Position numbers and translations under genes: made by a program
Shown here: positions 29,232-32,748 of the stretch, piece by piece
Numbering within the stretch: the first letter of the stretch is position 1
Layout of the letters: each line of letters begins with the position of its first letter
Notes under the pieces: model-generated
What the model was told of the DNA's origin: nothing
What the model saw: only the letters and a program-made list of their open reading frames with translations
The model's database searches: none
Assembly (NCBI RefSeq): GCF_057098645.1
Contig: NZ_CM169472.1
Reading direction: 5' to 3' (one strand)
DNA: 64,000 nucleotides

Positions 29232-29536
29232 ATCCAGCTTGCAATGAAAATAACGCCCGCCTAATATGTGCGCGTTTTCTTATTCCACAAACTGCAAGGA
29301 GGTAAATCATGACAAATCCTTTATCAATGACTCTTTGCAGACCTTTCCAGGATTAATTCTTTTTTTCTTGCCCTGGATTCGTCTGCCATTTCCTGATTTT
29401 TATATTTATATACTCTAAATAATTCGAGTTGCAGGAAGGCGACAAGCGAGTGAATCGCCAGGAGCTTACATAAGTAAGTGACTGGGGTGAACGAACGCAG
29501 TCGCAGTTCATGCAACTTGAAGTATGACGAGTATAA

Positions 29537-30067
29537 ATGGAATGGTACATGGGCAAATATATTCGTCCCTTATCCGATGCGGTATTTACCATCGCATCTG
29601 ATGACCTGTGGATCGAGAGTTTAGCGATCCAACAATTACACACCACGGCAAATTTACCCAACATGCAGCGCGTAGTGGGGATGCCAGATTTACACCCCGG
29701 ACGCGGCTACCCGATTGGCGCAGCGTTCTTCTCCGCAGGCCGTTTTTACCCAGCACTGGTCGGCAATGATATCGGCTGTGGCATGGCGCTATGGCAAACA
29801 GATATTCTCGCTCGCAAATACAACGCCGATAAGTTTGAAAAGCGATTATCAGCTTTGGATGACGTTGCTGAAGAAAGCTGGCTGGAGGAAAACCTGCCGT
29901 CAGCATTTGCACAGCATCCGTGGCGCAGCTCGCTTGGCTCTATCGGTGGCGGCAATCATTTCGCTGAACTGCAACAAGTTGATCAAATCATCAACGCTGA
30001 ACTGTTTGCACTGGCAGGTCTGGATGCGCAGCATCTGCAACTGCTGGTTCATAGCGGCTCGAGGGGG
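29537..30067 (+). pseudogene. RtcB-family RNA ligase (PrfH-coupled), 5' fragment interrupted by an IS element
   Basis: 187-aa ORF with RtcB-like motifs (GMPDLHPGRGYPIGAAF, GGGNHFAELQ, HSGSRG); reading frame broken by the insertion. Confidence 0.8.
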
Positions 30068-30094
30068 GGTGCCCCTATTAAGTTGTCAAGCATG

Positions 30095-31291
30095 TTATGA
30101 CGCCTGCGGGGTATAAAAAGTCCCGTCGCGCATCATGGCGAACAGAACGTCGCAGCGTCGTCTCGCCAGGGCGATAAGCGCCTGATTGTGTCGTTTTCCC
30201 TGACTCATTTTGCGGGTGTAGTAAGCCCTGGAGAGCGGATCCCTGAGCGCGGCGAAGGCCGACAGGAACAACGCCCGTTTGAGAGCTTTATTACCCCGTC
30301 GCGAGGGATGCTCACCGCGTATTGACGAGCCGGATCGCCGAGTTACCGGCGCAAGGCCAGCATAAGCAGCGAGATGTGCGGCAGAGGCGAAGGCGCGGCA
30401 GGCGACCTCGGTGAGGAGTCTGGCTGCGGTCCTGACACCGACTCCGGGCATACTGGTCAGGACCGGGTAAAGAGGGTGAGCAAGAACTCGCTGTTCTACC
30501 TCAAGCACCACCTCGTCTCTTTGCTTACGCAGCGTGATGAGCTGGAGTGCCAGACGTGGCAGTACTACGGCAGCGGCATTCGTGCCGGGAACGACGACGG
30601 TTTGTTCGGCCAGTGCCTGAGCTATGTCTGCTGCAAGGCGTTTACCCAGACGAGGCGCAAGTTTGCAGAGCTGGGCTGCCAGCTTCTTCTCACCCAGCGA
30701 AGCGAGTTTTTCTGGTGAGGGATATCGCTGGAGAAGATCGAGTACCGCCGGGTGATCAAGTCTCGGACCGAGAACGCGCTCCAGTGCCGGATGTATCTGG
30801 GTCAGAAGGCCGCGGATACGGTTGCTGGCCTGCGTTGTCTGTGCGGCAAGATCATCATCGAAGCCGCAGAGCATGGAGAGTTCGGCGATTTGCTCGTCAG
30901 CCAGTTTCAGCGTGCGTAGCGCGTGAGGCAGGGTACGGGCAGCTTCGGCAATGATGGCAGCGTCACGAGCATCAGTTTTAGCTTCACCGGCGTGTAAGTC
31001 GGCTATGCGGCGCATGGCCAGTCCAGGGAGGTATCCGACAAGGACTCCTTCTGAGCGGGCAACGGCGACAGGTAACGCACCGATGGTAGCTGGCTGATCA
31101 ACAACCAGCAGTATCTGACCATGTTGTTTCAGGTCAGATATTAGCGACCTGAGTTTGTTTTCGTCGTTGGGTAATGCTTTATCGAACAGGCGTTTACCTG
31201 AACGATTAATGGCTACAGCGTGATGCGTATCTTTACCGACATCAACGCCGATAAAGACCTGGACGGATTCGTAATCGCTGGATTCGGTCAT
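30095..31291 (-). CDS. IS110-family DEDD transposase/recombinase
   Basis: N-terminal IGVDVGKDTHHAV (RuvC-like DEDD) and C-terminal MPGVGVRTAARLL...AYAGLAPVTRRSGSS...GNKALKRAL motifs. Confidence 0.88.
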   Translation of the reverse strand: MTESSDYESVQVFIGVDVGKDTHHAVAINRSGKRLFDKALPNDENKLRSLISDLKQHGQILLVVDQPATIGALPVAVARSEGVLVGYLPGLAMRRIADLHAGEAKTDARDAAIIAEAARTLPHALRTLKLADEQIAELSMLCGFDDDLAAQTTQASNRIRGLLTQIHPALERVLGPRLDHPAVLDLLQRYPSPEKLASLGEKKLAAQLCKLAPRLGKRLAADIAQALAEQTVVVPGTNAAAVVLPRLALQLITLRKQRDEVVLEVEQRVLAHPLYPVLTSMPGVGVRTAARLLTEVACRAFASAAHLAAYAGLAPVTRRSGSSIRGEHPSRRGNKALKRALFLSAFAALRDPLSRAYYTRKMSQGKRHNQALIALARRRCDVLFAMMRDGTFYTPQAS

Positions 31292-31517
31292 TCTGTCTCC
31301 CTTGTATATGGGTTAACCAGATAACCACGGGGAGCAGGTACCGGCATCCACGTTACAGACGGTCCCGGCAAAAGTGCCTGACCTGACCCCTATTAGCGGT
31401 TACCAGCGCCCCACCAGACCCGGTGACATCACCCCCCGGATCATGGACGACTGGGGGCAGTAATCATGCCGGGTCTGGCTGGCTAACACCCCATTATAAG
31501 GGGTACGAATAAAGTAA
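31292..31517 (-). ncRNA. candidate IS110-type bridge (guide) RNA in the element's 5' non-coding arm
   Basis: ORF-free, about 225 nt; perfect 10-bp inverted repeat ccagacccgg/ccgggtctgg (31414-31423 and 31469-31478); 8- and 9-nt exact matches to the target flank and the element terminus. Confidence 0.4.
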
Positions 31518-32137
31518 CGGGGCAGTCTATTTTACAGCGGCATATTGCCTCGTTTTCGCATCATGGTTTGCCTGAAGGCAGTGACGATGCGCTACGGTAC
31601 ATTGCGGAACATGACGATGCGCTGGCATTTGCGCGTATTAATAGCCAGATGATCGCTTTGCGCATAATGCAACAGGTTAAGGCCACGGGAAGTCCGGTTC
31701 TGGATGTGGCGCATAACTTTGTTAGCGCGTGTCAAATCGGCGATCAACAGGGCTGGTTGCATCGTAAAGGTGCCACGCCGGATGACAACGGTCTGGTGAT
31801 TATTCCCGGTTCACGCGGTGATTACTCCTGGCTTGTACAGCCTGTTGCGAACGAAAAAACGCTCCACTCGCTGGCGCATGGGGCAGGGCGTAAATGGGGG
31901 CGCACCGAGTGTAAAGGGCGTCTGGCAGCGAAATACACGGCGACGCAACTCTCGCGTACTGAACTTGGCAGTCGGGTAATTTGTCGCGATAAACAACTCA
32001 TCTTTGAAGAAGCGCCACAAGCCTATAAATCGGCTGAAAGCGTGGTGCAATGTCTGGTGCAGGCCGGATTAATTATTCCTGTCGCGCGGCTGCGTCCGGT
32101 GCTAACGCTCAAAAACAGTGGAGGGAAAAAAGGATGA
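31518..32137 (+). pseudogene. RtcB-family RNA ligase (PrfH-coupled), 3' fragment
   Basis: Frame resumes ...GQSILQRHIASFSHHGLPEGSDDALRY...; ends 3 bp after the prfH start. Confidence 0.8.
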
Positions 32138-32748
32138 TCTTGCTACAACTCTCCTCTGCTCAGGGGCCGGAAGAATGTTGTCTCGCAGTGAAAAAGGCGC
32201 TGGACAGGCTGATTAAAGAAGCTGCTCGACAAGACGTCGTGGTAACAGTGCTGGAAACAGAAACAGGTCGTTACTCTGACACGCTGCGTTCGGCGCTGAT
32301 TTCTCTGGATGGCGACAACGCATGGGCGTTAAGCGAAAGTTGGTGCGGCACTATTCAGTGGATTTGTCCGAGTCCGTATCGGCCTCATCATGGGCGCAAA
32401 AACTGGTTTCTGGGCATTGGGCGTTTTACCGCTGATGAGCAGGAGCAATCCGATGCGATCCGGTATGAGACGCTGCGTTCGTCGGGGCCGGGTGGTCAAC
32501 ATGTCAATAAAACCGACTCGGCGGTACGCGCCACGCATTTGGCATCCGGTATTAGCGTGAAGGTTCAGTCAGAACGCAGTCAGCATGCTAACAAGCGGCT
32601 GGCACGATTGCTGATTGCCTGGAAGCTGGAGCAACAGCAACAGGAAAATAGCGCAGTGCGGAAATCGCAGCGGCGAATGTTCCATCACCAGATTGAACGT
32701 GGCAACCCGCGACGAACGTTCACAGGGATGGCTTTTATCGAAGGATAA
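32134..32748 (+). CDS. prfH: peptide chain release factor H homolog (GGQ motif), apparently full length
   Basis: 204-aa product [15 protein letters not shown]... with [16 protein letters not shown]; gaggg RBS; overlaps rtcB 3' end. Confidence 0.85.

What the first reader, a model, noticed from the sequence alone, without database searches (positions are those of the whole stretch)
31292..31517. Candidate bridge (guide) RNA in the 5' arm of the IS110-family element
The roughly 225-nt non-coding arm upstream of the recombinase gene is ORF-free and structured: a perfect 10-bp inverted repeat ccagacccgg (31414-31423) / ccgggtctgg (31469-31478) encloses a region that itself contains complementary C6 and G5 runs. 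Inside that loop, ggggcagt (31454-31461) is identical to the rtcB flank just outside the element (31519-31526). Further along, cccctatta (31387-31395) is identical to the element's opposite terminus (30072-30080). A structured RNA carrying one segment matching the target and another matching the donor end, in that order, is the architecture reported for IS621-type bridge RNAs. This element's recombinase is 398 aa and, as far as I can recall, larger than the IS621 recombinase, so it may be a different family member.
Basis: partly seen in the sequence, partly recalled or inferred. Interest (0 to 1): 0.85.

Follow-up and report, generated by a model that had tools for sequence, protein, structure and literature searches.

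The report
Bridge RNA gene of ISEc20
The non-coding arm upstream of the transposase gene of this insertion sequence (ISEc20) very probably encodes a bridge (guide) RNA of the known IS621 type, set to recognise runs of about ten C:G pairs, and a 2024 paper had already flagged it by computer.

Summary
The element is ISEc20, an IS110-family insertion sequence at window 30069-31518, inserted in an rtcB-like gene.

Its 5' arm, read on the minus strand, has the IS621 bridge-RNA layout. There is a 5' hairpin, a target-binding loop and a donor-binding loop.
- The stems that close both loops show strong compensatory covariation across 50 relatives from Proteobacteria and Actinobacteria.
- The guide segments inside the loops do not covary with each other.

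- LTG ACUGCCCCC equals the left flank.
- RTG GGGGGGU plus a handshake G is complementary to the right junction GC-AC-CCCCC.
- LDG UAAUAGGGGU equals the right end of the element.
- RDG GUAACGU plus handshake GG is complementary to CC-AC-GTTAC.

The donor guide covaries with the right end in relatives (GGGAC and GAGGC variants). The -35 and -10 hexamers at the two ends have exactly the geometry of the IS621 junction promoter.

The natural target is a C run of about ten, weakly preceded by CTG.

Supplementary Table 5 of Durrant et al. 2024 already lists ISEc20/ISSfl4 with a bridge RNA in the left end. The finding is correct but not new. No transcript or activity was tested here.

The parts
30069..31518 (-). 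ISEc20 element, counted with the right-end core AC. It interrupts an rtcB-like gene.
   Evidence: RefSeq names the gene 'IS110-like element ISEc20 family transposase'. The boundaries come from 33 independent left junctions and about 26 right junctions, and from three copies whose right end GGGGCAC is followed directly by non-C DNA.
30095..31291 (-). Recombinase gene, 398 aa.
   Evidence: ORF. Pfam PF01548 at 1.4e-48 and PF02371 at 3.7e-21. NCBIfam NF033542 'IS110 family RNA-guided transposase' scores 238.6 bits against a cut-off of 140. The Tnp domain aligns to IS621 (8wt6) at E 1e-14, with the SGSS serine motif kept.
31329..31504 (-). Predicted bridge RNA, about 176 nt (RNA positions 15-190 counted from the left end).
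   Evidence: Coordinates. The start is inferred from the geometry of the IS621 junction promoter and transcription start. The 3' end is taken as the end of the covarying stem of the donor loop.
31488..31504 (-). 5' stem-loop ACCCCUUAUAAUGGGGU.
   Evidence: Relatives keep a hairpin here with different sequences, for example GCCUCGAUAAUCGAGGC and ACCUUGAUCCUCAAGGU.
31413..31480 (-). Target-binding loop with its closing stem.
   Evidence: In helix 1, 7 of 15 pairs show changes on both sides and 98.3% of cells are paired.
31453..31461 (-). Left target guide (LTG) ACUGCCCCC.
   Evidence: It is identical to the left flank ACTGCCCC at 31519-31526. In 32 other insertion sites the most common C run left of GTTAC is 5. 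TG and CTG upstream of the run are enriched (P 9e-4 and 4e-3).
31429..31437 (-). Right target guide GGGGGGU (31431-31437) plus handshake guide GA (31429-30).
   Evidence: GGGGGGUG is the reverse complement of CACCCCCC, which is the right junction in the window (30063-30070) and in most copies. In L059 the guide reads GGGGUGUGU and the flank reads CACACCCC.
31329..31412 (-). Donor-binding loop with its closing stem and inner hairpin.
   Evidence: In helix 2, 7 of 11 pairs show changes on both sides. In helix 3, 2 of 3 do.
31386..31395 (-). Left donor guide (LDG) UAAUAGGGGU.
   Evidence: It equals the right end TAATAGGGGC at 30071-80; the last U would pair as a wobble with the bottom-strand G. 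It covaries with the right end in relatives: GGGAC with GGGAC in 9 of 9 copies, and GAGGC with GAGGC in 6 of 6.
31348..31356 (-). Right donor guide GUAACGU (31350-56) plus handshake guide GG (31348-49).
   Evidence: GUAACGU is the reverse complement of AC-GTTAC, that is core plus left-end terminus. GG is complementary to the last CC of the left target. The segment is invariant in 50 relatives.
31519..31527 (-). Left target half in the rtcB flank (…ACTGCCCC, including the target-side core CC).
30063..30068 (-). Right target half (C run in RNA orientation).
   Evidence: The C run after GGGGCA is at least 6 long in every copy that has it.
30084..30089 (-). -35 hexamer TTGACA in the right end.
   Evidence: It is followed by 13 nt plus the 2-nt core up to the end of the element, as in IS621 (TTGCAG, 13 nt, CT).
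31511..31516 (-). -10-like hexamer TACTTT at left-end nucleotides 3-8 (TACTAT in most Burkholderiales relatives).
   Evidence: A 17-nt spacer forms only if the ends are joined as GGGGCAC|GTTAC. IS621 has TATTAT at left-end nucleotides 3-8.
31297..31303 (-). Shine-Dalgarno sequence AAGGGAG of the recombinase gene.

Best explanation
The 5' arm of this ISEc20 copy encodes an IS621-type bridge RNA of about 176 nt, transcribed in the same sense as the recombinase gene.

Shown here:
- The RNA has a 5' hairpin and two internal loops closed by stems that covary.
- The first loop carries ACUGCCCCC, which has the same sequence as the top strand of the left target half. It also carries GGGGGGU, which is complementary to the top strand of the right target half.
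- The second loop carries UAAUAGGGGU, which has the same sequence as the right end of the element. It also carries GUAACGU, which is complementary to core plus left end.
- Each 3' guide is followed by two bases that fit the partner DNA, which is the position of handshake guides.

Inferred by analogy with IS621:
- The element excises as a circle joined as ...ATAGGGGC-AC-GTTAC....
- That joint brings a -35 (TTGACA) and a -10 (TACTTT) 17 nt apart and drives the RNA.
- Recombinase dimers loaded with the two loops pair a C:G run of about 10 bp, (A)CTG-C10, with the circle joint.
- The top strands are cut after core position 9 and exchanged.

The donor core is AC and the target core is CC. As a result the left junction reads CC-GTTAC and the right junction reads GGGGC-AC-C(n).
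For: Recombinase family:
- Pfam PF01548 + PF02371.
- NF033542 'RNA-guided transposase', above its cut-off.
- Tnp domain and SGSS serine motif aligned to the IS621 structure 8wt6.

Structure:
- RNAalifold on 50 arms finds both closing stems, and 19 pairs show compensatory changes.
- In the counted stem-only model, 96.3% of cells are paired. 127 cells show changes on both sides against 40.9 in shuffles (0 of 500 shuffles reach the observed value). The covariation score is 0.360, against 0.05-0.10 when partners are slid.
- The guide-to-guide pairs that RNAalifold also draws show no covariation: 1 cell, with 426 of 500 shuffles as high.

Guides:
- Exact matches in the window.
- The left donor guide covaries with the right end in two variant classes, 15 of 15 copies.
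- One relative shows covariation between right target guide and flank (L059).
- 33 independent ISEc20 sites all have a C run before GTTAC, most often of 5, with TG and CTG enriched.
- The inferred pre-insertion run has a mode of 10. That equals left-guide positions 5-9 plus right-guide positions 9-14.

Other:
- The promoter geometry is identical to that of IS621.
- Rules for guides, handshake bases and the cleavage site are taken from PMC11208158.
- Durrant et al., Supplementary Table 5, lists 'ISSfl4 | LE | IS110 | ISEc20;ISSfl4' and 'ISBma3 | LE'.
Against: - There is no evidence here for a transcript, for RNA binding or for activity.
- The consensus scan finds no sigma-70 promoter in the integrated copy. 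The -10 of the inferred junction promoter matches only 3 of 6 in ISEc20.
- Rfam 15 gives no hit in the arm.
- The four bases 5' of the C run in the left target guide do not covary detectably with flanks across the family (permutation P 0.33).
- The first core base differs between donor (A) and target (C).
- Empty sites found in other strains mostly carry shorter or interrupted runs: C5, C7, C8, C9, C4AC6 and C4AC4. The pre-insertion allele of about C10 is therefore inferred, not seen.
- In the free RNA the C5 and G6 guides can pair with each other.
Confidence: 0.9

Rival explanations
1. The functional species is not one bispecific RNA. Instead there are shorter RNAs: a seekRNA-like or truncated RNA carrying only the target-binding loop, possibly alongside a separate donor-loop RNA.
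For: - For ISEc21 (IS110 family) a 58-74-nt seekRNA was sufficient (PMC11187229).
- In the IS621 synaptic complex the two loops come from two different RNA molecules (PMC11208158).
- A preprint reports a pathway that uses a truncated target-loop RNA (10.1101/2025.10.25.684509).
Against: Both loops and all four guide strands are conserved in every relative, and the donor guide covaries with the right end. The donor loop is therefore under selection. RNA ends cannot be derived from sequence.
Confidence: 0.07
2. The arm is only a structured 5' leader or promoter region that regulates the recombinase gene. On this view the repeats shared with the ends are DNA sites read by the protein.
For: Older literature proposed a regulatory role for IS110 non-coding ends (cited in PMC11208160). 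A Shine-Dalgarno sequence and the start codon lie just downstream of the arm.
Against: - Compensatory changes preserve RNA helices well upstream of the ribosome-binding site.
- The matching segments follow the strand rules of IS621 guides: left guides share the sequence of the top strand and right guides are complementary to it. One of them matches the target, which is not part of the element.
Confidence: 0.02
3. The 8- and 9-nt matches arise by chance in a G+C-rich arm.
For: Runs of C and G raise the chance of short matches.
Against: Shuffles give 0.8% and 0.3% for the two matches, and 0.01% for both together. The same segments are conserved and covary across phyla.
Confidence: 0.01

Closest known systems
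IS621 bridge RNA (Durrant et al. 2024, PMC11208160; Hiraizumi et al. 2024, PMC11208158)
   Same: - It is encoded in the left end upstream of a DEDD + Tnp(Ser) recombinase.
- Its length is similar, about 176 nt against 177 nt.
- The order is the same: 5' hairpin, target loop, donor loop.
- The left target guide is 9 nt.
- Left guides share the sequence of the top strand and right guides are complementary to it.
- Two handshake bases follow each right guide.
- The junction promoter has the -35 placed 13 nt plus core from the right end, and the -10 at left-end nucleotides 3-8.
   Different: - There is no detectable sequence similarity between the RNAs.
- The recombinase is 398 aa against 326 aa, and only its Tnp domain aligns significantly.
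- The core is AC (donor) and CC (target) instead of CT.
- The target is a homopolymer, so the left and right target guides are complementary to each other.
- The right target and right donor guides are 7 nt and continuous.
ISEc21 seekRNA (IS110 family; Siddiquee et al. 2024, PMC11187229)
   Same: An upstream non-coding region is needed for circle formation and target choice. A promoter forms at the joined ends.
   Different: ISEc21 belongs to another clade (345-385 aa) and targets a site in IS3-family transposase genes. A short RNA of 58-74 nt was sufficient there. Nothing was tested for ISEc20.
ISBma3 (Burkholderia) and ISSfl4 (Shigella), ISfinder relatives
   Same: The recombinases are 80-95% identical. 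The arms can be aligned end to end and the guide strands are almost the same. All are listed with a bridge RNA in the left end in Durrant's Supplementary Table 5.
   Different: ISEc20 has ACUG 5' of the C5 (relatives have UGCUG, UCUCG and others), a U instead of C at the end of the left donor guide, and a weaker -10.

Membership tests
IS110-family bridge RNA (IS621 type) | Encoded in the non-coding end next to a recombinase with a RuvC-like DEDD domain (PF01548) and a Tnp domain (PF02371) carrying the catalytic Ser. | tested here: met
   The arm lies directly upstream of the gene.
IS110-family bridge RNA (IS621 type) | Two internal loops closed by conserved helices. | tested here: met
   16 of 29 pairs show compensatory changes, 0 of 500 shuffles reach the observed values, and the slid controls are much lower.
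IS110-family bridge RNA (IS621 type) | Target loop: the 5' strand has the sequence of the top strand of the left target, and the 3' strand is complementary to the top strand of the right target. | tested here: met
   Window: ACUGCCCC(C) and GGGGGGU. Population: 33 sites, the most common left run is C5, TG and CTG are enriched, and right runs are at least C6. The family-wide permutation test for the four 5' bases was negative.
IS110-family bridge RNA (IS621 type) | Donor loop: the 5' strand has the sequence of the right end, the 3' strand is complementary to the left end, and guide and ends covary. | tested here: met
   The GGGAC and GAGGC variants are matched in 15 of 15 copies. The right donor guide and the left end are invariant, so that pair is uninformative.
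IS110-family bridge RNA (IS621 type) | A core dinucleotide shared by target and donor at the crossover. | tested here: inconclusive
   The second base, C, is shared. The first base is A in the donor and C (sometimes T) in the target. IS621 tolerates variation at the first core base (PMC11208158).
IS110-family bridge RNA (IS621 type) | A sigma-70 promoter is rebuilt across the joined right and left ends. | tested here: inconclusive
   TTGACA, 17 nt, TACTTT, with the same geometry as IS621. The -10 matches only 3 of 6 in ISEc20 and 5 of 6 in relatives. The circle joint itself was not observed. The scan of the integrated copy found nothing.
IS110-family bridge RNA (IS621 type) | The RNA is expressed, bound by the recombinase and required for recombination, and its guides can be reprogrammed. 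| not testable with these tools
   This needs small-RNA sequencing, binding assays and recombination assays.
IS110-family bridge RNA (IS621 type) | Detected by a bridge-RNA covariance model. | not tested
   Rfam 15 gave no match in the arm. The published custom model could not be run here. Its authors list the ISEc20/ISSfl4 cluster as 'LE'.

The most novel reading that the evidence does not exclude
The ISEc20/ISBma3 clade is a bridge-RNA system set to homopolymeric C:G tracts of about 10 bp.

Its donor core (AC) differs from its target core (CC), so natural insertions carry a built-in strand marker.
- The left junction always shows the target version (0 of 94 with A).
- The right junction almost always shows the donor version.

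This is the outcome expected if only the top strands are transferred. It would be population-level support for the top-strand insertion model. The very long C runs seen at empty and flanking sites may be linked to the element's activity.
Probability: 0.35. Interest if true: 0.55.

Novelty: already known. Interest (0 to 1): 0.3.

Why it matters
This copy is a clean natural example of a bridge recombinase system from the large-recombinase (IS110-proper) branch, and all four guides and both handshake guides can be read from sequence.

Two details may be useful to the field:
- The target is a homopolymer. The two target guides are therefore mutually complementary, and the element can land only in expanded, hypermutable C:G tracts.
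- Donor and target cores differ at one base. That labels the strands in natural insertions and bears on the open question of top-strand transfer versus exchange of both strands.

For annotating this genome, the result explains why the rtcB-like gene next to prfH is split.

Tried and rejected
- **Rfam 15** at E up to 10 over 29500-32200 gave only two chance hits outside the arm.
- **The promoter and terminator scan** of 30000-31650 found nothing.
- **Permutation test across the family**, asking whether the four bases 5' of the C run in the left target guide track the flank, gave no signal (P 0.33, family only 0.59). The enrichment is visible only against base composition within ISEc20 sites.
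- **Boundary model A** (the element ends at GGGG and CACCCCCC belongs to the target) was rejected. Empty sites at the RHS-linked and tRNA-Arg loci have no CA.
- **Boundary model B** (the element carries CACCCCCC) was rejected for two reasons. Three copies end at GGGGCAC followed by non-C DNA. It would also give a 22-nt promoter spacer.
- **The exact pre-insertion allele** of the window's rtcB site could not be recovered. Alleles seen are C4AC6, C4GC3, C7, C9 and C63.
- **Full-text searches** for ISEc20, ISBma3 and ISSfl4 found no description of their target or RNA.

Full report
**Observation.**
- The 10-bp inverted repeat is 31414-31423 / 31469-31478.
- The 8-mer GGGGCAGT is shared by 31454-31461 and the flank 31519-31526.
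- The 9-mer CCCCTATTA is shared by 31387-31395 and the opposite terminus 30072-30080.

In 20,000 Markov shuffles of the arm, the flank 8-mer turns up in 0.8%, the terminal 9-mer in 0.3%, and both in 0.01%. The arm folds somewhat better than shuffles (z = -2.7).

**What the element is.** The ORF at 31291-30095 (minus strand, 398 aa) carries PF01548 (DEDD_Tnp_IS110) and PF02371. It passes the NCBIfam model NF033542, 'IS110 family RNA-guided transposase'. Its Tnp domain aligns to the IS621 recombinase of PDB 8wt6, with the SGSS serine motif conserved.

RefSeq calls identical copies 'IS110-like element ISEc20'. 1,462 of 5,426 complete E. coli genomes hold a match, with a median of one copy. Here the element splits an rtcB-like gene that lies upstream of prfH.

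**Ends and target.** I collected 33 independent left junctions and about 26 right junctions of ISEc20 from E. coli genomes and metagenome contigs.

In the orientation of the recombinase gene, every copy starts with GTTAC. That start is preceded by a C run of 3-8, most often 5. Most copies end ...TAATAGGGGC-A-C(6-9).

Empty sites at the RHS-linked and tRNA-Arg loci contain no CA, so the A belongs to the element. Three copies (L046, L108, L139) end GGGGCAC followed directly by non-C DNA, so the C run after it belongs to the target.

Left run plus right run minus the shared C gives an inferred pre-insertion run. Its mode is 10, both for ISEc20 and for 44 relatives.

Empty alleles in other strains are usually shorter or interrupted: C5, C7, C8, C9, C4AC6 and C4AC4. 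C15 and C63 alleles occur in the strains whose flanks are closest to occupied ones. The long pre-insertion allele is therefore inferred, not observed.

**Structure.** A scan of one genome per species returned 80 loci encoding 72-94% identical recombinases. They come from Burkholderiales, other Proteobacteria and Actinobacteria. Their 5' arms align end to end with the window.

RNAalifold recovers the stem that closes the first loop and the long-range stem that closes the second. I then counted a model that keeps only those stems and the inner hairpin of the second loop:
- 96.3% of cells are paired.
- 16 of 29 pairs show changes on both sides.
- 127 cells show such changes, against 40.9 in shuffles (0 of 500 shuffles reach this).
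- The covariation score is 0.360, against 0.05-0.10 when the partners are slid by 1-3 columns.

The pairs RNAalifold also drew between the guide strands themselves are conserved but show no covariation. That is expected if they are kept for pairing with DNA. A 5' hairpin is present in all relatives with different sequences.

**Guides.** I used the IS621 rules (PMC11208158):
- The left guides have the sequence of top-strand positions 1-9.
- The right guides are complementary to top-strand positions 8-14.
- Two handshake bases 3' of each right guide pair with positions 7 and 6 of the partner DNA.
- The top strand is cut between positions 9 and 10.

The window then reads as follows (coordinates):

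| Segment | Sequence | Window | Relation to DNA |
|---|---|---|---|
| LTG | ACUGCCCCC | 31461-31453 | Same as the flank ACTGCCCC |
| RTG | GGGGGGU | 31437-31431 | Complementary to A8-C9-C10..14 |
| Handshake (target loop) | G, then A | 31430, 31429 | G fits donor C7. The A at 31429 does not fit donor G6 in ISEc20; relatives carry U here, a possible G-U wobble |
| LDG | UAAUAGGGGU | 31395-31386 | Same as the right end TAATAGGGGC, the last base as a wobble |
| RDG | GUAACGU | 31356-31350 | Complementary to A8-C9-GTTAC |
| Handshake (donor loop) | GG | 31349-31348 | Fits target C7 and C6 |

So the target loop's 3' strand is complementary to the right junction GC-AC-CCCCC. The donor loop's 3' strand is complementary to CC-AC-GTTAC.

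Across relatives the donor guide changes together with the right end: GGGAC in 9 of 9 copies and GAGGC in 6 of 6. One relative has the target guide GGGGUGUGU next to the flank CACACCCC.

Within ISEc20 sites, excluding the window, TG and CTG precede the C run more often than expected (9 and 4 of 32; P 9e-4 and 4e-3). A family-wide permutation test of those positions was negative. The bases 5' of the run therefore contribute weakly at best.

**Promoter.** The integrated copy has no consensus sigma-70 site. Joining the ends as GGGGCAC|GTTAC places TTGACA (30089-30084) 17 nt from TACTTT (31516-31511), which is TACTAT in most Burkholderiales relatives.

The geometry is exactly that of IS621, whose sequences I took from the paper's supplement:
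- The -35 is followed by 13 nt plus the 2-nt core.
- The -10 lies at left-end nucleotides 3-8.
- The RNA starts at left-end nucleotide 15.

In ISEc20, nucleotide 15 is the first base of the 5' hairpin. That gives an RNA of about 176 nt, against 177 nt for IS621. This also supports AC as the donor core. It is an inference, because no circle joint was observed.

**Peculiarities.** Because the target is a homopolymer, the C5 of the left target guide and the G6 of the right target guide are complementary. They pair with each other in the free-RNA fold.

The donor core AC differs from the target core CC. None of the 33 ISEc20 and 61 family left junctions has A at position 8. 44 of 46 family right junctions and most ISEc20 right junctions have it. 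Both junctions thus carry the top-strand version. This fits the top-strand insertion reported in a preprint (10.1101/2025.10.25.684509), but selection or repair bias could also explain it.

**Comparison and novelty.** This is an IS621-type bridge RNA in a different, larger-recombinase branch of the family. That branch spans 395-455 aa (PMC11187229).

Durrant et al. predicted bridge RNAs in 85.7% of ISfinder IS110 elements. Their Supplementary Table 5 lists 'ISSfl4 | LE | IS110 | ISEc20;ISSfl4' and 'ISBma3 | LE'. The existence of this RNA was therefore already predicted.

I found no description of its guides or of the C-run target in the searchable literature. Expression and activity remain untested.

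Noticed in passing
L098 and 23 other metagenome loci; E. coli hits H105-H111: A solitary 61-nt left-end fragment of ISEc20 (GTTAC...GAUUACUG) lies next to the flank ...GCGTGAAGCCCC, under genes annotated 'i-spanin Rz' or 'hypothetical'. It ends exactly before the C5 of the left target guide. It is widespread in E. coli.
   Followed up: partly
L046 (after the gene), L108, L139: In three independent copies the right end GGGGCAC is followed directly by GTTAC plus unrelated DNA. The right target half thus mimics the element's own left end, making a pseudo left junction.
   Followed up: partly
L007 (empty rtcB site), L166, L097, L072, L037: Very long homopolymers occur at empty or flanking sites: G63 in rtcB, C15 at the Nissle-type site, and C13 to C29 or more next to relatives. 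The strains with the longest runs have the flanks most similar to occupied strains.
   Followed up: partly
window 29537-30068 and 31519-32137; L005, L006, L169, L170: The rtcB-like gene upstream of prfH carries a variable G tract inside the HSGSRG motif. In-frame alleles are G6TG4 and G3CG4. Frameshifted alleles are G7, G9 and G63. This looks like a contingency-type homopolymer.
   Followed up: partly
L099, L102, L115, L120, L123, L126, L142, L147, L160: Some ISEc20 copies, including several whose arms are identical to the window's (L126, L142, L147), lack the A at the right junction. They read GGGGC-C(n) instead of GGGGC-A-C(n).
   Followed up: partly
L010, L103, L114: The same right flank, GGGATTCCGCTACGGC, is joined to three different left flanks. 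This suggests rearrangements between copies.
   Followed up: no
L018-L097: Near-identical elements (72-82% aa identity) with alignable arms occur in Enterobacteria, Burkholderiales and Actinobacteria (Microbacterium, Arthrobacter). This implies recent transfer across phyla.
   Followed up: no
L091:744-966: A 7-nt duplication (GCTAATA GCTAATA) sits just before the left donor guide in one Arthrobacter copy.
   Followed up: no
L012, L013: E. coli also carries degraded relatives with 87% DNA identity. They have a variant left target guide (AAUUCCCCC) and a deletion in the target-loop stem. One lies beside iha and fragments of other insertion sequences.
   Followed up: no
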